NCBI RefSeq assembly: GCF_006345805.1
Contig: NC_043014.1
Location: 496,001 to 560,000, forward strand
Direction of reading: 5' to 3'
Length of the DNA: 64,000 nt
DNA from: Octopus sinensis
Taxonomy: Eukaryota
The position numbers and the translations under genes were made by a program. Under the pieces are notes generated by a model, which was not told where the DNA came from, did no database searches, and was given only the letters and a program-made list of their open reading frames with translations. Shown here one piece after another: positions 18,966 through 54,350 of the stretch (the first letter of the stretch is position 1; every line of letters starts with the position of its first letter).

Positions 18966-20321
18966 TTAAACTGAGCAGGTTTTCCCAAACCAGGAATTAA
19001 AAAGATATTTAGCTTTTTCGAGAAAATCGTCATTTTTGCAAAATATATAAATAAGTCTTTCTGAAAATGCTTTTGGAATGAGAGAAGAATAAGGAAGCTG
19101 GACCCGAGGCAGGACTTGGTTGATGGAGTGTTTGGAATAAAAGTGTATCTTGTGGACCGGGTCGTCGTCTCCACTCGCATAATCCAGCTTGAATTTATAA
19201 ATGACCAACTGGTCGACAAGTTCTGGGTCATCTGGAACGATTTCATGCAGAATCTTTTTACAATCAACTTCACAGTTGAAAGATTTCTCACCAACGAACT
19301 TATAAAGTTTTCTTTCGTGTATTCGGGTTAAAATCTCTTTCGCCGTTTGTAAATTTGTTTGGTTGGAATACAGGATTTCGTCAAAAACTCCGTCCGTCAG
19401 CTGGGCGAAGGCTGTCATGTCGTGTTTGGCTTTCGAGAGAGAAAGTAAGGAATATTTCCCCTGCCGCCCGATGAAGCTGTCTGCCTGGACGAAAGCATCT
19501 TTCAGCATTTCATTCATGGCAGCAACAGCTTTGTGTTTATAGGCAAGACAATGAAGTTCGAATCTGGAACGGAACATGTGGTAGAAATTCAGTGCAGTTT
19601 TATCTCTGAAACATATTTCCGTCCTTTTGCCGTCCACTGTGAGGACCCGGGCGAATTTAATGATCCTTTTGTGATCAATTTGGTTTGTTAAGCCAAGATG
19701 ATGACAGTCTCTCGCGAAATAATCCCATTTATCAACGTCCACGCCATTCTCTTTGTTGGCAACGATGTTGTAAAGATATGTTTTATCAACACCTCGACCT
19801 GTTTGCTCTTCATCGGCAACCAATTCCTTGATGGGATTTATTAAATTCTTTATAAAATTCACATCTTTGCCATCCAAACCTGCTTTGCGGAAACCGTTTC
19901 TAACCGTTTCGTTTTCATCCAAGATGTGTTGGAACATTTCGACGGAGGCGATTTCGTGTTTCCACTGAGATCCAGGTTCGATTTCGGGAATGAATAGATT
20001 GTCGAAGAAATGAGAAAATGGTCCGTGTCCCAAGTCATGGCACAGACCAGCGATTTCCACACACAACAGGTCTTTGTCGGAGATGTCGAGTTCGGGTTGG
20101 TGTCTTCTCAGGTGCCGAATGAATTCGCCAGCGAGGTGACAGGTTCCAATGCTGTGCTCGAAGCGGTTGTGCGAGGCCCCGGGAAAGACATAGTAACACA
20201 ACCCCAACTGTTTGATGTTACGAAGTCTCTGGAATTGGACAGTGTCGATGATTGTAACACAAACTGGATGCAATTCAACAGAACCATGGATCGGATCGTG
20301 GAGGACGACGTAGACACCCAT
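18966..20321 (-). CDS. SAMHD1-like: SAMHD1-like HD-domain dNTP triphosphohydrolase, uninterrupted CDS, no SAM domain (451 aa from ATG 20321)
   Basis: DPIHG, FQRLRNIKQLG, PGASHNRFEHSIG, GLCHDLGHGPFSH, WKHE, DVDKWDYFARD and LH..AY.HK all align to the SAMHD1 catalytic core. AATAAA on minus strand at about 18743-18748. A possible splice acceptor (tttctag|) lies just upstream of the ATG. Confidence 0.95.
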   Translation of the reverse strand: MGVYVVLHDPIHGSVELHPVCVTIIDTVQFQRLRNIKQLGLCYYVFPGASHNRFEHSIGTCHLAGEFIRHLRRHQPELDISDKDLLCVEIAGLCHDLGHGPFSHFFDNLFIPEIEPGSQWKHEIASVEMFQHILDENETVRNGFRKAGLDGKDVNFIKNLINPIKELVADEEQTGRGVDKTYLYNIVANKENGVDVDKWDYFARDCHHLGLTNQIDHKRIIKFARVLTVDGKRTEICFRDKTALNFYHMFRSRFELHCLAYKHKAVAAMNEMLKDAFVQADSFIGRQGKYSLLSLSKAKHDMTAFAQLTDGVFDEILYSNQTNLQTAKEILTRIHERKLYKFVGEKSFNCEVDCKKILHEIVPDDPELVDQLVIYKFKLDYASGDDDPVHKIHFYSKHSINQVLPRVQLPYSSLIPKAFSERLIYIFCKNDDFLEKAKYLFNSWFGKTCSV

Positions 20322-20869
20322 CACTAGAAACGGCCCTTTAAATCAACGGTGTTGAGGTTAATTAGTGAAACGATTATAAAACAACCACCTTGTAATTAGT
20401 CGGTTCACACTGCTTCATAGTAAAATATAGATTAATTAGAGTTAATTAAATTGTTTTAGAGATTAAAAATTAATTAATTAACATTAGTTTATACATTAAT
20501 TAAATTACATACAATGAAAGGTAAATAGTTGTTGTGTATATAGAAACAAAGTTTGTGAAGATTGTGAAGTTTATTAATGCAAGGTAGACAATATATTTAT
20601 TGTTCCTGTTATTGCTATTGTTGTTTAACTCCAGATTATTGCTGACAGAGGAGACGTTTGATTAAAGTCAAAGTTTTTCCAGCCGTGACCATTCCGTCAG
20701 TGCAAAGAACCTACAACTACAATACCTAAATATTATTTTTTATTTTGTTTTTAGAAGGTAAGATCGAAAGGAAATTTAGCTGCTATTTTTAATCAGATTG
20801 AAGGCTCCGTCCTCGTCTCGAACTCTTATTACTATTGTTTACGAAGGATGTAGCCTATTGTAGAAGTAT

Positions 20870-26109: not shown

Positions 26110-27265
26110 TGACTATTGGCTGTAAAGCGCTGTGCCCACAATATATTGCTACACAGATGGCTTTCTGCTGTGCAGCAAAATCTAGCACTTAAACACTGCA
26201 GCAGTGTAAAACCACTCCTGCAGTGATCTCTCAGGAAGATGCAGAACACTTGGTGGCAGGATTTTGCTCGTGATGTTCAGGCTGCTGCTGATGCAAATGA
26301 CAGCAAGAAGCTTTACCATCTTATGAAGCAAGTTTATGGGCCTAAGAGCTCCTTTGCTTTCCAAGGAGTTTTCTACTCGATTTACTAAATCAACAGAAAC
26401 CACAGGATTGAACACTTCTCTGAACTCTGAAACAACGAGTCAGTTGTGGATGAAACAGTGATTGATGCTATGCAACAAAGACCCATCATTGGCTCCTTAA
26501 ATTCTACACCCTCAATAGATGAGGTAATAACCTCAATAAGTAAATTGAATCTTGGTAGGGCACCTGGAAAGGATGGAATTTGTGCTGAGGTCTTGCGATT
26601 TGGTGGTAATTGCATCACACAGTCCCTTCATGAACTTATTAGTGCAGTCTGGAGGGATGGTGCAATCCCTAAGGACTGGAAGGATGCAATTATTCTACCT
26701 CTATATAAAGGAAAAGGAGCCAGAACAATGTGTGGTAACTACAGAGGTATTGCTCTGCTATCAGTTGCTGGCAAGATTCTGGCAAATATTCTTCTTACCC
26801 GTCTGAATGGGTGTCATGTAAATGATGTCCTATCTGAATCTCAATGTGGCTTCCAATTTGGTAGAGGGACAATGGATATGATTTTCACAGCAAGACAGAT
26901 GCAGGAGAAGTGCTATGAGCAGAATATGGATCTTGTCCAGGTATTCATTGATTTAACTAAGGCCTTTGATATTGTAAATAGAGCCTTTCTATGGAAAATA
27001 CTTGGCAAACTTGGATGTCCGGATCACTTTGTATCTAAAATTAAATTATTCCATGATGGGATGGAGGCTTGAGTCAACGGGACCCATTCCTGTAGAGAAT
27101 GGTGTCAAGCAGGGTGACATCCTTACCCCAACACTCTTTTCTTTGTACTTTGCTGCTGCTTTTACTCATACTTTTGCTAAGGTTAGCTCTCTGAGAATAT
27201 ATGTCAGATATCGATCTGGCTGCCTCTTCAATCTGCAATGATTTTCTGCCAATTCAAAAGTTTGC
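26110..27265 (+). mobile_element. RTE (BovB-like) LINE RT fragment
   Basis: ORF 26446-27072: RAPGKDGI, WKDAIILPLYKGKG..CGNYRGIALLSVAGKIL, ESQCGF..GRGTMDMIF, FIDLTKAFD; followed by GVKQGD. Confidence 0.9.
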
Positions 27266-35344: not shown

Positions 35345-37521
35345 CTATCTATCTTTCTCTGAAGAACAAAGCAATTCAAAGAGTCTTAACAGTTCTATGT
35401 TGTTCTTGTTCTTGTAGTCGACATTAGGAAAACTTTGTAAATGTTTGGCTATCTCAGAACTGTTATTGCTGTTTATCAGAAAAATCTTTCCAGTTTTCAG
35501 TTTTCGGTTTTTCATAATTTCCACGGCATATTTCGTTTCAGATAAAATATCCTTGGAATAAAAGATTCCAATATGGCAGCTGTCTTCCATTACTTTATTA
35601 ACATTTACCATTTTTCCTATTCCTAGAGTGAAATCAGAGTCTCCGTAGCTAGTTTGCAATCCAAAATATGTCCCCAAACTCTCTGCTAGATGTTTAGCAT
35701 CACCATTATCACTTTTGGATGTTAAAATGTAGACATCATATTGAAAGAAAGGAATCTTTGATGAGCCAACACTACCTGCTTTGTGTTCAGATTCTTGGGA
35801 ATGGCCAAAGCAAAGTTTGTAATATTTTTTGAAAATTATCGTAGCTACCTTCTGTCTCTTTCCATAGAACTCTTTAGCATATTGAAGATAAATTGTTTTC
35901 CTCAGGTCGACATCAATTTCACTTTGTTGACAACCAGAAAACTCTAAATGGAGAAAAGCTTGTTGAAATTCCTCCTGTCGGCATAACAATCGTAATTTTT
36001 GTGAAAGTTCATTTCCACCGCATTCTTTGAGAAGTTTTGGGAAAATTCCCCCCTCATCAGGCAATTCTTTTATAGACTGAATTAATTTCATTAGATTACT
36101 TTTGTATTCGGTGTCAGCAAAGTTATAAATTCTTTCCATTATCTTTTTGATTTCCCAAATTTTTTTCTGTCTTTTATTGAGCACCAGAATCTCAGATAAA
36201 TGATTGATGGCACAGACAAACATATCCGTACCAACATCTATTAAATCTTGTTTCTCTTCTTCACTTTCTTTTTTGTCAGCCAGAAAAAAACAAAATTTTC
36301 CATATTGAATGAAGTATTTGATTTTGGTGTCCCAAATGTTCAAAACTGAAAAGTCAATATCTTCAAAACATTTCATCGCATTTTCATATTCGCGCACACT
36401 TCTGTATAACAAGGCTAGGTCATACATGACAGGTATATTCCGAGGATCCAGACTGTAAGCTTTTTTAAGATGGTATTCAGCCTTATCCACATTTTCATTT
36501 CTTTCAATATCAGGTATTCTCTCAGGACATTTTAATATTCGTTTTTCTACTTTTAATTCTTTTAGTTCTTCTGTTTCACAATTGGAGAAGGGTAATTCTT
36601 TAACGCACAAATCTTTGTATTCAGGAATTTGATTTTTATAAATAGTACCAAGACGATGATGTGAAAGTGAGGTCTCATTTCTTTTAATAGCTTCCTCTAG
36701 CAATTTCTGTGCATCTTCATACTTACCTATCGATAAATAGAAAGTAGCACTTTTTTCCATTACAAATCGGTCTTGGGGAAACATACTACAAGCCCTCTGG
36801 AAATATTCAATTGTTCTTGGAGTACGTATATGAAGAAATGGATGATTCTCAAGAGAGCCTAGCAAGCCAAAGTTTTAGCCATTAGATGATCATTAACATA
36901 ACAAGGATAATTAGAAGTAATTCTTTGAAGAATTTCAGTAGCTTCCTTTGAAGATTTTTCTATCTTTTCTTTATCATATAATATCCTCATCCTACGATAA
37001 ATTAGCAGAGCCAGGCGAAAAAGCCAAAAGTAATTGTTTGGGCAAACCTGAAGAGCTTCTTTGAAAAGTTCAATGGCACGTTGATAATGGTGAAAAGATA
37101 TTCTAGAAATGCAACAGGCAATTTCAGCTTTACCTCTCGCTTCCAATGAAGGGAAATTGGGGCTGCTTTTTAAAGTGTTCAGTTTGTCCAGCACTCTATC
37201 GACTTCAGGGAAATTTTCATAATGCACGAACATTAACGCTTGGTTTGTTAATGCCAACAAGTTATCCGGATCTTTTCCCAGTATTTCAATGGAGATTTCC
37301 TTGGCCAATATTTGCTCATGTAAAGTCCAAAGGAGGAAGACTTTAGCATGTTGGTTGCAAATTTCTTCTTGTAAATCAAGCAAAATCTCATTTCTTAAGG
37401 CATTTTCAACTTTTTGCAACTTGGCCTTAAGTGCATTCACTTTAAGGTTAAAACATTCTTCCAGCATGTTTGGAAATTCTTCAACTTTTATCCTGTAAAA
37501 TTTTATTTTTTCATCAGAGTT
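35345..37521 (-). CDS. TTC22/IFIT-like TPR protein with C-terminal TIR-like domain; large terminal exon with one frameshift at about 36862
   Basis: Polypyrimidine acceptor ttttcttttctttacccag| (exon starts at 37521, phase 0). TPR motifs DPDNLLALTN, ARGKAEIA, YQRAIELFKEALQVCPNN, AEYHLKKAYSLDPRN..YDLALLY. C-terminal YDVYIL.S..D...GL....DSDFTLG....N...MEDS..I...S resembles TIR boxes 1-2. Adding one T (gct-ttg-cta) fuses the ORFs into about 725 aa. Confidence 0.8.
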
Positions 37522-37661
37522 CTGGGTAAAGAAAAGAAAAAAATGTTAAACCTGTGTTACATCCCACTGTATTAATATTGTCATTATACAAGTGAGATTA
37601 ACTGCTAGAGGGGCATGAGAGGGGGAGAGGGGAAGAAACATGGGGGGGGGGAGTAAATGTG

Positions 37662-42582: not shown

Positions 42583-44690
42583 TCTCCTTAAATCCTTAAA
42601 ATGTTTTAGCCCGAAGGCCGCGGCCATGCTGGGCACACCACCGCTGAATGAGCCACACTAGTTTGTGAAATCCACCTCTGATACGTGGCACTTGATCAAC
42701 AAGGAGTTCGATGCTGCTGCCGCATCCTGTCCCGTGAGGTAGGTTCATCTGGACTTCCAACAAGAAGAGATCCAGTTTAGTTTTAAAGAAACCCACATCC
42801 ACACCATGTAAGTCTCTCAGGCATTTAGGGAGGATGTTGAAAAGCTGTGGTCCTCTGAAACCCAAGCTGTTGCAGTATCTGGACCTGTATTTTGATGGTG
42901 ATGTTGGAATCCTTGGCACCACGCAGCGGCGCCCCGTTCTGCGGTTGGAGTAACTTTGAATGCCAAAGTTTGGGATAAGACCCTCCAGGATTTTCCAGAT
43001 GTATATTACTGCATATCTCTCCCGCCTCCGCTCCAGGGAGAAGAGTTTTAATACCTTCAGTCTTTCCCAGTAGCTGACATTTTGCATTGAGACGATTTTC
43101 TTTGTGTAGCTTCTCTGAGTTGCTTCAAGTTCTGCTGTTTTTTTTATATTGTGTGGTGACCAAAGTTGGGAGCAGTAGTCCAAGCGGCTGAGGACAAATG
43201 TTTTCCATAGGACCATCAGTGTCTCCTTCTCTCTTGTTCTGAAAGTTCGGAGAATCCATCCAGCTAGCCGTCTGCATTTTATCACCAGATTAGCAATATG
43301 CATTGGAAAGATGCATCATTGCTCATGTCAATGCCCAGGTCACGCACTGATTTTGACTCAGGGATTGCAATTCTTCCTGGGCCAGTGTATCCAGTCTTCA
43401 CGTCATTTACCTTTGTGTGCCAGTAGCGCAGGGCCTGGAACTTACCTGCATTAAACTGCATGTTGTTGTCCTCAGCCCACCTGTATATTGTGTCCAGCTC
43501 ATGTTGCAGATGCGCAATATTTTCAGGGTTCTGTATTGCGTGGGAGACCTTTGTGTCATCTGCATAGCTAGCAAGGGTGGTCATCGTAGCAACTGAAGGC
43601 ATGTCTGAAAGGGCCACTATGAACATCAGTGGCCCCAAGACAGTGCCCTGTGGGACACCGCTTGTTATTTGCGTTCCCTGGAGGTGGCTCCATTGCTCAC
43701 AACTGCCTGTTTTCTGTCTTTTAGGAAGTTGTGCAGCCACTCTCCAAGTTTCCCGCCTATGCCGAGACCACGCAGTTTATGACAGATCATACCATGGTCG
43801 ACTTTATCAAAGGCTTTTGCAAAGTCAAGATATATTACATCCACATTTGAGCCATTTAGTAGCTGTTTCAACACCCAGTCATAGTGCTGGCAGGAGCTGT
43901 GTTAGGCAGCCTCTACCTGGTCGAAATCCATGCTGGGTGTCAGACAGTAAGTCATTTTCTTCAAGGAACATGATTAGTTTCTTACGGACTATTCGTTCCA
44001 TGACTTTGCTGATGTGTGAGGTCAGAGAGATAGGCCTATAATTTTTAGCATCTGCTCTGCTACCTCCCTTATGGATAGGGCATATTACCCCCTCTTTCAG
44101 TTTGACTGGGAGCTTACCACTTGCAAGAAAGCTCTGAAAAAGAAGCTGTAGCGGTTTTGCAAGGGCTCGTTTGCACGATTTGAGAAGGATCGCTGGAAAT
44201 CCATCAGGTCCAGCAGCTGAGTTTGTGTCAATCTCATCAATGGCTAGTGTGATATCATCTTCTTCGATGTTGATGTACTCAATTTTTGTCTCTTTGGCCG
44301 CTGGTAAAGTGGCAAAGAATTCTTCTGGGTTGTTTACTTGCCTGTGTCCTAGAGGTGTTGTGAACACACTTTGGAACTGTTCGTTCAGTATTTCACTTAT
44401 CCTCGTGGGATTTCCTGTGAGAGAGCCATCTTTTTGGAAGAGAGGTCCTATTCTCTGGTGCACTGTGGCTGTCTCTTTGGCAAACTTAAAGAAAGCTTTA
44501 GGGTTTGATTTTATATTTTCTATTACCCAAGCTTCTTTATCTGCTCTCTCCTTTTCATGGGACTGATGTAGACTTTTCTCAGTTTCCATTAGCATTCTTT
44601 CGAGCCGAGACTTCTCACCACTTTTGGTGTGCTTGCTCAGGCGGTTTGCAATCCTTGTCCGTCGTCTCATAAGAATCCTCCTTTCTCTAG
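42583..44690 (-). mobile_element. 5'-truncated CR1-group LINE (RT and C-terminus), frameshifted
   Basis: SAAGPDGF, NYRPISLTS, QHGFRPGR, YLDFAKAFDKVDH, GVPQGTVLGP, YADDTK, LERRRERY; flanked on both sides by (TA)n tracts. Confidence 0.92.
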
Positions 44691-44691
44691 G

Positions 44692-45074
44692 ATATATATC
44701 TATACATATATATATATATATTATCTATATATATATATATATCTATATATATATATATATCTATATATATATATAATCTATATATATATCTATATATCTA
44801 TATATATATATATATCTATATATATATCTATATATATATAATATATCTATATATATATATCTATATATATATATCTATATATATATATCTATATATATAT
44901 ATCTATATATATATCTATATATATATATCTATATATATATATCTATATATATATATATATATATATATCTATATATATATATCTATATATGTATCTATAT
45001 ATATATATATCTATATTATATATCTATATGTATCTATATCTATATATCTATATATGTATATATATATATATATC

Positions 45075-47430: not shown

Positions 47431-47678
47431 ATTGATCTATATATATATATATATATATAATATATCTCTATATATATATATATATTATATATATAATATA
47501 TATATCTTATATATATATATATATCTATATATATATATATATATATCTATATATATATATATCTATATATATATATATATCTATATATATATATATCTAT
47601 ATATATATATATATCTCTATATATATATTATCTATATATATATCTATATATATATATATCTATATATATATATATATA

Positions 47679-47711
<33 letters not shown>

Positions 47712-48052
47712 ATATATATATATTATCTATATATATATCTATATATATATCTATATATATATATATATCTATATATATCTATATATATATCTATATATTA
47801 TATATATATAATATATTATATAATAGAAATATTAAAATAACTAAGTCTCTCTAAAAGAGAACAGCGGCAGCGTTCCCGGAAAATAATAGTTATCGCCATA
47901 CTAATATGGCATTCTTATAAAAATAAGAAAAAAGCTGTCCGCTTATTAGCTCCATGAGGCCATCGCCTTAAGTTAGCTATTTGATACACAAACTGTATCC
48001 ATATAACCTTCGAACAAGGGAGGTCAGTCGCTCCACACTACTTGACCGGCAG

Positions 48053-48092
48053 CTACAGACGCGTTTCGGGGTATTGCCCCTTTTCAATGCAG
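48053..48092 (-). ncRNA. minimal hammerhead ribozyme, U3-A8 variant (left arm)
   Basis: Reverse complement of 48159-48198. Confidence 0.75.
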
Positions 48093-48158
48093 GTAAAACT
48101 AGGTAAATAAAACCATCGAACAGAGATTGTCGGAAGCGACACCTACTGGCTGGCTACG

Positions 48159-48198
48159 CTGCATTGAAAAGGGGCAATACCCCGAAACGCGTCTGTAG
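48159..48198 (+). ncRNA. minimal hammerhead ribozyme, U3-A8 variant (right arm)
   Basis: ctgca-TTGAAAA-gggg caata cccc-GAAA-cgcg-TC-tgtag. GUC cleavage triplet, palindromic stem III. Confidence 0.75.
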
Positions 48199-48362
48199 CT
48201 GCCGGTCAAGTAGTGTGGAGCGACTGACCTCCCTTGTTCGAAGGTTATATGGATACAGTTTGTGTATCAAATAGCTAACTTAAGGCGATGGCCTCATGGA
48301 GCTAATAAGCGGACAGCTTTTTTCTTATTTTTATAAGAATGCCATATTAGTATGGCGATAAC

Positions 48363-48401
<39 letters not shown>

Positions 48402-48652
48402 TATATTATATATATATATATATATATAAAATGAGATAGGGGTTGAAAATTCAACCCCCATGATATGATATAATTACATATTATATTTTATATTTTATAT
48501 TTCTATTTCCTTGTCTAATTATATTTACAATATATTTTGTATAATGCCTTTACTGTTATGTAATGGTGTAATAAAGTATTGATTGGGTATCATCTGATGG
48601 TTGATGTTTGATTGATTTAAGTATGTTTCTCCATTTTGTAATTTTGTAGTAT

Positions 48653-50416: not shown

Positions 50417-53400
50417 ACTCTTTTACTTGTTTCAGCCATCCGGCTGAGGCCATGCTGGGGCACCGCCCTTGTTGCTACCCTCTCTAAGTCCAGTTTGCCG
50501 TGGCTGGCCACTGATCTAAGAGAGAGTTTGTAGCTGCTGCCCTTAGGTTACCTTCGTACCTTGCAGTGAGTTCATCTGGGATCCTGGAAAGCAGCTTGTC
50601 TAGATGTTTTTTGAAAATGTCCACATCCGCATCATGTAGATCTCTTAGTTTTCTTGGCAGTTTGTTGAACAGCTGAGGGCCCCTGAACCCCAGGCTATTA
50701 CAGTATCTGCTCCTTACCCTGGATGTGGAAGACGGGACCTTTGGCACCACACAGTGACGTCCTGTACGGGGATTGGAACAGCTCTCAATTCCAAAATTTG
50801 GTGCTAGTCCCTCCAGGATTTTCCATATGTATATCACTGCATATCTCTCTCGTCTTCGTTCCAAGGAGTACAAATTGAGTTCCCTAAGCCCTCCCAATAG
50901 TTCTTTTCTTTCATGGTGGAAATCCTCTTGGTGAAATGTCTTTGGATTGTCTCAAGCTCTGTGGTTAGTTTGACACTATGCGGTGACCACAGTTGGGAGC
51001 AGTAGTCCAGGCGGCTTAGGACAAATGTCCTCCATAGTGTCAACATGGTCTCGCAGTCTCTTGTCCGGAATGTCCTCAGGATCCAGCCAGTGAGTCGTCT
51101 GCACATTGTCGCCACCTTCGCGATGTGTGAAGAAAAAGATGCATCGTCACTCATGTCTATCCCCAGGTCCCGTATTGATTTCGATACTGGGATTTCGATC
51201 CTTCCTGGACCAGTATAGTTGTGTTGTAATGTATATGTGTTTACAGCTTGATATTGTAAGGCTTGAAATTTACCAGCATTAAATTGCATGTTGTTGTCTT
51301 CAGCCCATTTGTATATGGCATCCAGATCTTGTTGTAAAAGGTCAGCATCAGCTGGGTTTTTGATTGCCTGTGCTACCTTTGTGTCATCAGCATAGCTAGT
51401 GAGGGATGTTGTTTGTGCTACCAAGGGCATGTCAGAGAGCGCCACCAAAAACAGCAAGGGTCCCAAGACTGTGCCCTGTGGCACCCCGCTTGCTATTGGT
51501 GTCTTTCCCGAGAGGGCTCCATTGGCTGCAACCATCTGGCTTCTGTCCTTCAGGAAGTCATGTATCCACTCACCTACTTTTCCTGTTATGCCGAGTCTGA
51601 GTAATTTGTGACATATCACTCCGTGGTCGACTTTGTCAAAGGCCTTCGCAAAGTCGAGATATACCACATCCACCTGTGAGCGATCCAGTAGTTGTTTCAG
51701 TACCCAGTCGTAGTGTTGTAACAGCTGCGTAAGGCAGCTTCTTCCTGGGCGAAAGCCATGCTGTGTGTCAGTGAGACGGTTAGTTTCTTCGAGGAACGTG
51801 ATGAGTTTTTTTCTGATGATTCGTTCCATGACCTTACTTATGTGTGACGTCAGGGAGACTGGCCTGTAGTTTTTGGCCTCTGCTCTACTCCCTCCTTTGT
51901 GGATAGGGCATATGGTGCCTTCTTTTAGCGCCCTGGGCAGTTTACCATTAGCCAAGGAACCACTGAAGAGCTTCTTCAGTGGTCCCGCTAGGGCATGCCT
52001 GCATGTTTTTAGGAGGACTGCTGGGAATCCATCTGGTCCAGCAGCTGAGTTTATTCTCATTTCTTCTATGGCAGATATTACATCCCTCTCTGTTATGTCT
52101 ATGTGGTCGATGGTTGTTGTTTGGTTTTGGAGTGTTGTGGCATCAAAGAAAACTTCTGGGTTTGTGATTTGCATGTGCCCCAGAGGGGATGTGAACACAC
52201 TTTTTACTGTTCCTTTAGTATTTCACTTATCCCTTGGGGTCCTCAGTTAGAGAGCCCTTTTTATCAAGAGTGGGCCAATCTTGCAGTGTACCGAGGTGGT
52301 TTCTTTCGCAAATTTAAAGAAGGCTTTAGGGTTTGTTTTAATATTCTCTATGGCCCTGGCTTCTCTCTCTACCCTCTCCTTCTCATAGGAAAGTTTGAGT
52401 GCAGTTTCCGTGCATTCAGTTGCTTCGAGAGCTTAGCTCTTCGCCTCATAAGTATTTTCCTGTCTCTGGGAATAACGTTCCTATGCCCGCTGGCTTTTTT
52501 CTCCGGGACAAACTTATGGCATATGTTCTGTATTGTTGTCATGAAATGTTGGAAATGTGTGTTGGTGTCTTGTGTGGTGATGAAGTCACTCCAGTCATGT
52601 TTTCGGATCTCTTCGTTGATCTTCTTCCAGTTTGCCTTATGGAAGTTTAGACTGGATAGGCCTGTGGTATTTTCTAATGGCTGCGTCTCAACTAACTCTC
52701 TCATACCATATATCATTACCTCTACTAAGTTGTGATCTGAGAGAATTGTTGGTGTTACCATTATGTTGTGGATGAGCATCGGGTTGCTTGTGAAACAGAG
52801 GTCCAAGACATTCTCACCTCTTGTTGGCCAAAGCACTGCTTGCTCCATGAAAAACTTGCGTGTGAGAGCCAACAAGGACTCTGTCTGTCTCTGTTCAAGT
52901 GATGTCATTCCAGGGAGGAGATGGCCATCTGGCCATTTGACTTTCGGAAGGTTAAAATCTCCCAGCAGTAGAATGGTGTTACCCTGGTCCAGTTTGTCCA
53001 GGACTTCTTCTATTCTTCTGAGGCTATCTTCAAACACTCCTTCATGACTAGGGGTGTCTGGTGGCCGATATGTGACACATATTACTATTTTCGGTTGTTT
53101 CATGTGTACTATCAGTGTGTCACAGACTGAGTTTGAGTGTGTCAACAGTACTATGGGTGTGACATCTTCACGGACGTACAGGGCAACCCCACCATGAGTT
53201 CTTTCCTTCCTGTCCGACCGAAAAACAGTATACTTCGGTATGTGTATTTCTGCATCTGCTATACTGCTTGACAGGTGCGTTTCAGTCAGCGCTATGCATA
53301 TTGCATGGTTGCTTGTGCTCAAGTCCCTAAGGTAAGGAATTTTACCCATATTAGTGGGTTTCACCAGACCTCTGACATTCAGCAGAAGCACTGGTGAGAC

Positions 53401-54350
53401 ACCCGGGTGTCAATAAAGGCTGACGGTGTGTTACCTGGGCCGGCGTCAGCGGTGGCCACCCTGGGTCCCTTGATTGTGGTGGTCTTGAGTGCTGTTGTGA
53501 GTGCCCCTGGCTCTGAAGACGATGTATCCAGGCCAGTTGTCCCACAATTTTCTCTGCCATTTCCACAAAATTTCTTTGTTCTGCTGCCGCCGTCTGCATT
53601 TCCTCTGCAAATGTGCGCCTTCTCCTTGTTGGGGCATTACGCACTATGTCTGCATATTTCTGGGGCAGCTTGTATTTGTTCTGGTTTTGGTTAAGGCATT
53701 TTGGTCGAGTGGGTTTGATGCAATTTCCATAGGGCCTGGGATGAGCGAACCTGCATCCTTCCCCTGTTTCTCCATGCCAGCAGGTTCCATTCCGGAAGAA
53801 TTTGCATGTTATCTGGGTTTCTTGTCCCCAGTTCCTCTCTGTTTTTTCTCCTCCGTTGGACGGTTGTCCACTGGTTCCTTTCTGCATAGGTCTTTTCATC
53901 CGGGTGGTTATTTTCTGTTTCCCCATCGCCGCCTATCTGTTGTTTGCCCTGCTTGCCTTCTTCGACTGTGGCAGTGGGCGTGTCATTTTTTGACACTCTG
54001 TGGTTGGTGTTTCCTGTTTCCATCTCTCTCTCTTTGTCTTTGTCCACCTTGAGGACTTGGCTTAGCAAAGCCATGTGTGGTGCAATGAGAGTGTAGGCCC
54101 TTTCGACTTCTCTTTTCTTCCTCTCTACTTGCGCCAACGTCCTCATAAAGCCATGGCTTTTCAGGGTCGCCGCTATGTTTTTAGTTGGTTGCGATCTGTC
54201 GGCCGAGCTCCATCCTCTGATGAAAACTTCCAGCTCTACTTTCGTCCAGTTACGCTGGCTTTTGTTGACACCAGTGTTTGCATTCACCTCTAATTTTTGC
54301 ATGTTGTCCATTCCGTTGTAGCGGGGAGAGAGAGAGAAGCTGTGAGGGAA
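50417..54350 (-). mobile_element. near full-length CR1-group LINE (ORF1 plus APE-RT ORF2)
   Basis: ORF2: LLLNVRG, LTETHL, HGGVALYV, YRPP, LLGDFNLP, LDLCF, SDHN (APE, 52369-53391); RT 50834-52198; C-terminus 50484-50897. ORF1 53351-54311 with one frameshift. 3' tail ggcggtgccccagcatggcc...gaaacaagtaaaagag. Confidence 0.93.

What the first reader, a model, noticed from the sequence alone, without database searches (positions are those of the whole stretch)
47883..48368. Perfect 210-bp inverted repeat carrying two divergent U3-A8 variant hammerheads
Seen: the arms appear identical, and each begins at the spacer edge with the first base of hammerhead stem I (ctgca-TTGAAAA-ggggcaatacccc-GAAA-cgcg-TC-tgtag). 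Established: C3-G8 is a tertiary Watson-Crick pair in the hammerhead core, and the U3-A8 swap retains activity. Inverted terminal duplications are a known product of Penelope-like insertion. Inference: this is a very recent insertion, and the duplication boundary at the ribozyme suggests RNA structure or cleavage shaped the template switch. Transcription from either strand would give both a ribozyme and a 210-bp dsRNA hairpin.
Basis: partly seen in the sequence, partly recalled or inferred. Interest (0 to 1): 0.75.

Follow-up and report, generated by a model that had tools for sequence, protein, structure and literature searches.

The report
Two-armed hammerhead retrozyme insertion
This is one of hundreds of near-identical copies of a small non-coding jumping repeat that carries a predicted self-cutting RNA; its back-to-back arms are likely the footprint of a borrowed Penelope-type enzyme copying the RNA from both ends of a DNA cut, and the arm boundary at the ribozyme is likely chance.

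Summary
The perfect 210-bp inverted repeat is real, but it is the core of a longer insertion (47820-48368) in a (TA)n tract. It is one copy of a young 362-nt tandem-unit hammerhead family (1,032 core matches in G000), a non-LTR retrozyme or non-autonomous Penelope-like element. Outer ends sit at two fixed sites 63 nt apart. Of 65 two-armed sites, 57 pair one site with the other and none pairs like with like (one possible exception outside the tally). Inner junctions are spread evenly over the unit (p=0.82), so the ribozyme-boundary idea is not supported. Only the + strand hammerhead is complete, and the read-through hairpin would block it (64 kcal/mol). U3-A8 cores and opposite-strand hammerhead pairs are already in print (PMC4209133). 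Best model: a Penelope-type enzyme primes both cut DNA strands at two RNA sites. The spacer holds an empty 17-bp site that a young LINE occupies in other copies (37 of 39 young copies); that LINE nests among U1-inserted relatives. The scan had already noted this architecture and such a LINE on other DNA. The window's junction was not independently confirmed.

The parts
47820..48095 (-). Left arm: unit positions 359 -> 362/1 -> 273 read on the minus strand; outer end at fixed site B; unit base 362 missing
   Evidence: Parse against a natural 362-nt unit, 276 nt
47820..47882 (-).
47883..48092 (-). Left 210-nt copy of the inverted repeat
48053..48092 (-). Truncated hammerhead copy (core, helices II and III, 5 bp of helix I; distal helix I missing)
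   Evidence: (z=+0.30)
48092..48096 (.). Head-to-head inversion junction; no microhomology here; reads as a 1-nt loss or as 3 untemplated bases
   Evidence: not bridged in 8 contig runs
48096..48368 (+). Right arm: unit positions 300 -> 362/1 -> 210; outer end at fixed site A
48132..48148 (+). Empty 17-bp target site (unit 336-352) that a young L1/Tx1-like LINE occupies and duplicates in other copies
48143..48213 (+). Complete type I hammerhead, predicted: U3 at 48164, A8 at 48169, 4-bp helix II, 2-bp palindromic helix III, long bulged helix I; predicted cut between 48193 and 48194
48159..48368 (+). Right 210-nt copy of the inverted repeat
47440..47819 (.). TA-rich microsatellite, left flank (insertion target)
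   Evidence: sequence; same flank type at most family ends
48369..48428 (.). (TA)n microsatellite, right flank
   Evidence: sequence

Best explanation
The stretch is one recent copy of a 362-nt, protein-free, hammerhead-bearing tandem repeat family lying in a (TA)n tract as two head-to-head arms, and it was likely made by a borrowed Penelope-type reverse transcriptase-endonuclease that cut both DNA strands and primed each on the element's RNA, one at site A and one at site B. Shown: the family, the two fixed ends, the A+B pairing, random inner junctions with microhomology, and alleles shared between arms. Inferred: the two cDNAs ran for variable lengths along a multimeric or circular RNA, through the uncut ribozyme site, and were joined by short microhomology. 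Here the left cDNA happened to stop beside the hammerhead. The ribozyme likely serves the family's RNA processing, as a monomer or as a dimer through its palindromic helix III in tandem arrays. This copy is likely inert, because read-through would fold into a 210-bp hairpin and it lacks the unit's candidate promoter motif.
For: 1,032 matches to the core pattern and 0 to the control; tandem period 362 nt. Two-armed sites: 26 of 31 in the set chosen by likeness to the window and 31 of 34 in the genome-order set are A+B; none is A+A or B+B; the other 8 have an end at neither site. Both end sites finish in the same AT-rich motif that runs into (TA)n. Junction ends are uniform. Microhomology of 2 nt or more at 42 of 57 flush junctions against 16% in random joins. 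Arms of one site agree at 60 of 64 subfamily-diagnostic positions against 10% when permuted. Arms cross the predicted cut site unbroken 188 times in 76 loci. At L055/L123 one insertion joins retrozyme units ending at B to the endonuclease end of a Penelope-like element whose own inverted 3' end forms the other arm. In vitro, an anole Penelope-like protein cuts and extends both strands, starts at two RNA sites that define the tail, is predicted to be a dimer and does not need ribozyme cleavage (PMC11167929). Helix I covaries. The monomer folds as a circle at z=-7.8, 0 of 60 shuffles as good.
Against: No autonomous element with the unit as its terminal repeat was found: 0 of 29 other endonuclease loci matched the unit, and the partner rests on one chimeric locus whose GIY-YIG Pfam hit is under the cut-off (20.4 against 22.6 bits). 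L121 has a short arm ending near B, not in TA, opposite a B end. 17 of the 51 genome-order sites are one-armed. PMC11167929 saw no difference in start site between strands. The window's own junction has no microhomology and was not bridged in any of 8 contig runs. Allele sharing could also come from later gene conversion. Cleavage, transcription and circles are untested. A target-site duplication cannot be read in TA.
Confidence: 0.78

Rival explanations
1. One reading: ribozyme folding or cleavage stalled the reverse transcriptase and caused a template switch at helix I.
For: In this copy one arm ends within 4 nt of the proximal helix I start; 7 of 120 ends lie within 5 nt of it against 3.65 expected (p=0.074).
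Against: Ends are uniform overall (p=0.82); 27 of 120 fall in the extended ribozyme against 24.2 expected; there is no excess at the cut site; 188 unbroken passes through it. The left arm probably runs 3-4 nt past the edge with one base missing.
Confidence: 0.06
2. A single priming event followed by fold-back or self-priming on the new cDNA or on an antisense template, as proposed for rotifer Penelope elements.
For: Short overlaps at junctions and shared alleles between arms fit; proposed in PMC3846280 (passages).
Against: Copying one's own cDNA gives no reason for the second arm to stop exactly at the other fixed site in 57 of 65 cases, and cannot add the 63-nt tail to a short A-primed arm. 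Two sites have arms from different elements (L037, L055/L123).
Confidence: 0.1
3. This locus is an assembly or library fold-back chimera.
For: Perfect identity of the arms; the junction is not bridged in 8 contig runs; flanks are long TA tracts; single-base losses are common in fetched copies.
Against: A fold-back would mirror flanks and end points. Here the arms end at different family-fixed sites with different flanks, as at 57 other sites, each with its own junction. The runs laid are collapsed contigs and may be of other individuals.
Confidence: 0.05

Closest known systems
Metazoan non-LTR retrozymes (PMC7229834: passages and Discussion read; bioRxiv 10.64898/2026.07.22.740005: parts 1-3 of 5 read)
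   Same: Non-coding tandem units with a type I hammerhead in each; 362 nt is in the mussel range (350-390); low GC; proposed to be moved by Penelope-like elements.
   Different: The word 'inverted' does not occur in PMC7229834. Here about two thirds of sites are two-armed with fixed paired ends, the core is U3-A8, and circles and cleavage are not shown.
EN+ Penelope-like element insertions (PMC8557442 and PMC3846280, passages; PMC11167929, main text)
   Same: Partial tandems, an inverted 5'-truncated copy, a tail at one end only, AT-rich or (TA)n targets, microhomology joins, two start sites.
   Different: No ORF; the tail is 63 nt rather than 30-40; the A+B rule is counted here over 65 sites.
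Schistosoma mansoni Cercyon hammerheads (PMC4209133, passages and part 2 of 4)
   Same: U3-A8 core variant (about 1,300 hits there); pairs of hammerheads 100-700 bp apart on opposite strands; palindromic helix III.
   Different: Those are minimal motifs, heterogeneous and mostly single; this one has a long covarying helix I and near-identical copies.
Target-specific Tx1-clade LINEs: Tx1L in Tx1D, Tx1-Mar, Keno in U2 (PMC4494074, passages); relevant to the spacer site
   Same: APE-RT-zinc finger LINE inserted at one site of another repeat with a fixed duplication and tandem re-insertion.
   Different: The target is a hammerhead retrozyme and sister copies sit at the U1 5' end. Clade membership is by domain layout and resemblance, not by a tree with named families.

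Membership tests
Type I hammerhead ribozyme | Core boxes and cleavage triplet with a Watson-Crick 3-8 pair | tested here: met
   U3/A8 in 247 of 250 cores in fetched loci; position 7 is A or C; no C3-G8 among the first 100 of 1,494 listed
Type I hammerhead ribozyme | Helices I, II and III with covariation | tested here: met
   99.5% of 210 cells paired, 2 pairs with both sides changed, all slid controls at 53% or less; 10 related haplotypes, so few independent events; helices II and III barely vary
Type I hammerhead ribozyme | Match to a curated Rfam model | tested here: not met
   No hammerhead hit; the variant core and type I topology may explain it
Type I hammerhead ribozyme | Self-cleavage | not testable with these tools
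   8 of 9 Xenopus retrozyme dimers did not cleave in vitro, so activity cannot be assumed
Non-LTR retrozyme | Short non-coding tandem units, each with a type I hammerhead | tested here: met
   362-nt period, arrays up to about 10 units; no ORF of 100 aa or more inside 47855-48368. This copy holds less than one direct unit per arm
Non-LTR retrozyme | Expressed as monomeric linear and circular RNA | not testable with these tools
   Only contigs were served; no holder on record as RNA
Penelope-like insertion | Inverted 5'-truncated copy, one-sided tail, microsatellite target | tested here: met
Penelope-like element (autonomous) | RT plus GIY-YIG ORF | tested here: not met
   No ORF in the element; the Pfam RT hits among 16 window ORFs are LINE-like pieces elsewhere and none hit GIY-YIG
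Non-autonomous derivative of a named Penelope-like family | Sequence shared with the terminal repeat of an autonomous family | tested here: inconclusive
   One chimeric locus; 0 of 29 other loci of that family share the unit; other families not examined
Target-specific LINE (spacer site) | Most copies at one site with a fixed duplication | tested here: met
   37 of 39 copies at least 96% identical to L121; 17-bp duplication at the 5' junction of 20 of the 26 copies
snRNA-type promoter in the unit | Upstream motif about 60 nt before the start | tested here: inconclusive
   Best sense-strand hit of a matrix from 33 U1/U2/U4 upstreams lies at -59 from the LINE site (snRNA genes -59 to -63), but scores only 8.1; an antisense hit scores 9.9 and 75 of 1,000 shuffles reach 9.9; the pairwise test found nothing

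The most novel reading that the evidence does not exclude
Penelope-type insertion is an obligate two-site twin-priming reaction: a dimeric enzyme primes the two cut DNA strands at two different fixed sites of one ribozyme RNA, possibly a circle, and can swap RNAs in mid-reaction. The retrozyme it spreads carries an snRNA-type start site that a LINE has captured by switching target from U1 genes, making a three-tier parasite chain.
Probability: 0.42. Interest if true: 0.75.

Novelty: new member of a known kind. Interest (0 to 1): 0.48.

Why it matters
The single locus is ordinary for its family, and its two headline features are in print. The family is useful. How Penelope-like elements make tandem and inverted structures is called unresolved (PMC8557442), and their role in moving retrozymes rests on co-occurrence and sequence similarity. 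A short, young, near-identical substrate with two mapped start sites and a strict A+B rule gives exact predictions for the existing in vitro system. The LINE's shift between U1 genes and the retrozyme, within a few percent of divergence, is a natural test of how endonuclease target choice changes.

Tried and rejected
Rfam found no hammerhead. Window ORFs are not a Penelope-like parent. The endonuclease family next to L055 does not share the unit, so I rejected it as a direct sequence parent. My first guess that the three loci with a shared 5' flank were the parent was wrong: they are LINE insertions. No RNA holder was listed. Two runs guessed as RNA hold the unit as contigs, which shows nothing about level, strand or ends. 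The window junction was not bridged in 8 of the 24 listed runs that I laid; holes in contigs prove nothing. One search used a mis-registered structure string (my error) and is replaced. L150 first looked like a two-element insertion but is two neighbours in TA. Eight more diverged LINE copies, of the 43 with mismatches, were not in the retrozyme. Carriage of LINE plus unit by the Penelope enzyme is unlikely as the main route (a 5'-truncated copy keeps the duplication, LINE-duplication-LINE tandems exist, and near-identical LINEs sit in different host subfamilies), but it may explain the array at C3:72.50-72.53 Mb. Rows dropped before counts: 13 duplicate views of the same sites, among them the window's own locus, and L047, a likely duplicate of L040; 4 junctions with inserted bases were left out of the microhomology count. 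Eight paper searches listed no paper that by title or abstract start reports the A+B count or a retrozyme-targeting LINE. The library lacks most subscription papers, Repbase was not searched, and I opened no supplements (those of PMC4209133 and of the bioRxiv preprint may list similar families). PMC7151607 (passages) did not address U3-A8.

Full report
Observation. The arms 47883-48092 and 48159-48368 are 210 nt, fully complementary and 66 nt apart. Rfam does not recognise it. The + strand copy with its upstream spacer folds into a type I hammerhead with a long helix I (z=-3.31); the - strand copy does not (z=+0.30). So the spacer is part of the ribozyme, and only one hammerhead is complete.

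Family. A DNA search of G000 gave many copies at 99-100% identity (217 matches from 40 of 778 candidates scored). A core pattern gave 1,032 matches and no control match; a looser one gave 1,494 and showed a second subfamily with C at position 7. The tandem period is 362 nt. Parsed against a natural unit, the window element is 47820-48368: a left arm ending at unit 273 (site B) and a right arm ending at 210 (site A), both running into TA. U3 and A8 are kept in 247 of 250 cores in fetched loci. Across 10 haplotypes 99.5% of cells pair, with two pairs changed on both sides in distal helix I. The haplotypes are related, so this reflects few events. The U3-A8 pair itself does not covary inside the family: no C3-G8 copy was among the first 100 listed.

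Ends. I counted two sets of sites. One holds 36 sites chosen by likeness to the window. The other holds 51 loci taken in genome order: all matches on C1 and the listed C2 matches not already fetched. Of 65 two-armed sites, 57 have one arm ending at A and the other at B, none is A+A or B+B, and 8 have an end at neither site. For the 31 A+B sites in genome order alone, independent even choice would give about 5e-10 (my arithmetic). One exception lies outside the tally: L121 has an 82-nt arm ending near B, not in TA, opposite a B end. Seventeen of the 51 are one-armed, two of them only because a LINE interrupts the view.

Junctions. The 120 inner ends of 60 junctions are uniform over the unit (p=0.82), with no excess at the predicted cut site or over the extended ribozyme, and a small excess at the stem I start that is not significant (7 against 3.65, p=0.074). 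Arms cross the cut site unbroken 188 times. Microhomology of 2 nt or more marks 42 of 57 flush junctions against 16% by chance; the window's has none. The two arms of a site share subfamily alleles at 60 of 64 positions against 10% when permuted.

Mechanism. Inferred: a Penelope-type enzyme cuts both strands of a TA tract and primes one strand at A and the other at B. Both cDNAs run for variable lengths (medians 372 and 435 nt, up to 3.6 kb) on an uncut multimer or a circle and are joined by microhomology. This matches the in vitro work on the anole element, which extends both strands, starts at two sites that bound the tail and does not need cleavage, and the known layout of an inverted copy with a one-sided tail. 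One locus joins retrozyme units to the endonuclease end of a Penelope-like element and ends in that element's inverted 3' end; L037 also has arms from two elements. That family shares no sequence with the unit at 29 other loci, so the partner is a candidate only. Circle against linear multimer is not resolved.

This copy. Read-through in either direction makes the antisense arm first. Forcing the hammerhead costs 64 kcal/mol, while the right arm with its spacer alone forms helices I and II with probability above 0.98. Hairpin and ribozyme are alternatives. The copy lacks unit 274-299, which holds a weak match to a motif found 59-63 nt before U1, U2 and U4 genes (inconclusive; the lead came from earlier notes). 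The junction was not bridged in 8 contig runs, so an artefact at this one locus is unlikely but not excluded.

The spacer site. Three C1 sites hold a 5.36-kb LINE with a zinc-knuckle ORF1 and an endonuclease-RT-zinc finger ORF2, intact in L121. All 26 exact matches to its 3' end are followed by unit 336 onward, with a 17-bp duplication at 20 of them. Of 17 further copies, 11 are in the same site, 2 young ones are not and 4 are more diverged: 37 of 39 young copies in all. One relative is followed by a whole U1 gene (125 bits) and two have the U1 5' 17-mer at their 5' junction. In a tree of 45 rows the 35 retrozyme-inserted copies form one clade (100/98) nested among U1-associated copies, with host subfamilies mixed; the root is the midpoint and the bootstrap had not settled. 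In the window the site (48132-48148) is empty.

Comparison and verdict. PMC4209133 already reports the U3-A8 variant and opposite-strand hammerhead pairs 100-700 bp apart. Retrozymes and their link to Penelope-like elements are described. LINEs that target other transposons are known. The element meets the sequence tests for a non-LTR retrozyme and for a Penelope-type insertion, fails the test for an autonomous element, and its activity is untested. My counts were made before I read them. Verdict: a new member of a known kind, interest 0.48, mostly for the testable rule and the LINE. Terms such as twin priming, Neptune-like and Tx1-like are partly recalled labels, not results of a call.

Noticed in passing
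window 48132-48148; L070, L121, L122, L125-L147, L180-L194: A young, often full-length L1/Tx1-like LINE inserts at this 17-bp site in other copies (37 of 39 young copies), with two LINE-duplication-LINE tandems.
   Followed up: yes
L199 (G000 C15:29053146), L195, L201, L191: Sister LINE copies sit at the 5' end of U1 snRNA genes or U1-like sequence; the tree suggests a switch from U1 to the retrozyme.
   Followed up: partly
G000 C3:72.50-72.53 Mb (L128-L130, L180, L181): A two-armed array in which consecutive units each carry the LINE; either target saturation or amplification of a 5.7-kb composite.
   Followed up: partly
L123:6000-9210 (= L055, L091): Chimeric insertion: retrozyme arm joined to a Penelope-like RT/GIY-YIG fragment with an asparagine-rich linker; relatives of that element show a canonical-core hammerhead-like motif with a long helix II, read by eye, and end in TA at two places.
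   Followed up: partly
L037, L150: A second short TA-targeting family; in L037 it forms the other arm of a retrozyme insertion and shows a hammerhead-like motif by eye.
   Followed up: no
L159-L173: An older subfamily with C at core position 7 and the same two end sites; about 460 more matches in the looser pattern, not all of this kind.
   Followed up: partly
unit 277-292 (absent from the window copy): Weak match to an snRNA upstream motif at -59 from the LINE site.
   Followed up: partly
window 18966-20342 (-): Long open frame (458 aa) with an HD domain.
   Followed up: no
window 35345-37545 (-): Two overlapping long frames with TPR repeats, possibly one gene with a frameshift.
   Followed up: no
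window 42596-44724 (-), 50484-53409 (-), 26431-27072 (+): LINE-like RT pieces, one with an AP-endonuclease frame; the pieces at 44.0 and 51.8 kb are 79% alike over 101 nt.
   Followed up: no
G000 C15:28.98-29.18 Mb; C4:104.34-104.37 Mb and C9560: Clusters of U1 and U4 snRNA genes; the two U4 clusters may be a duplicated assembly of one region.
   Followed up: no
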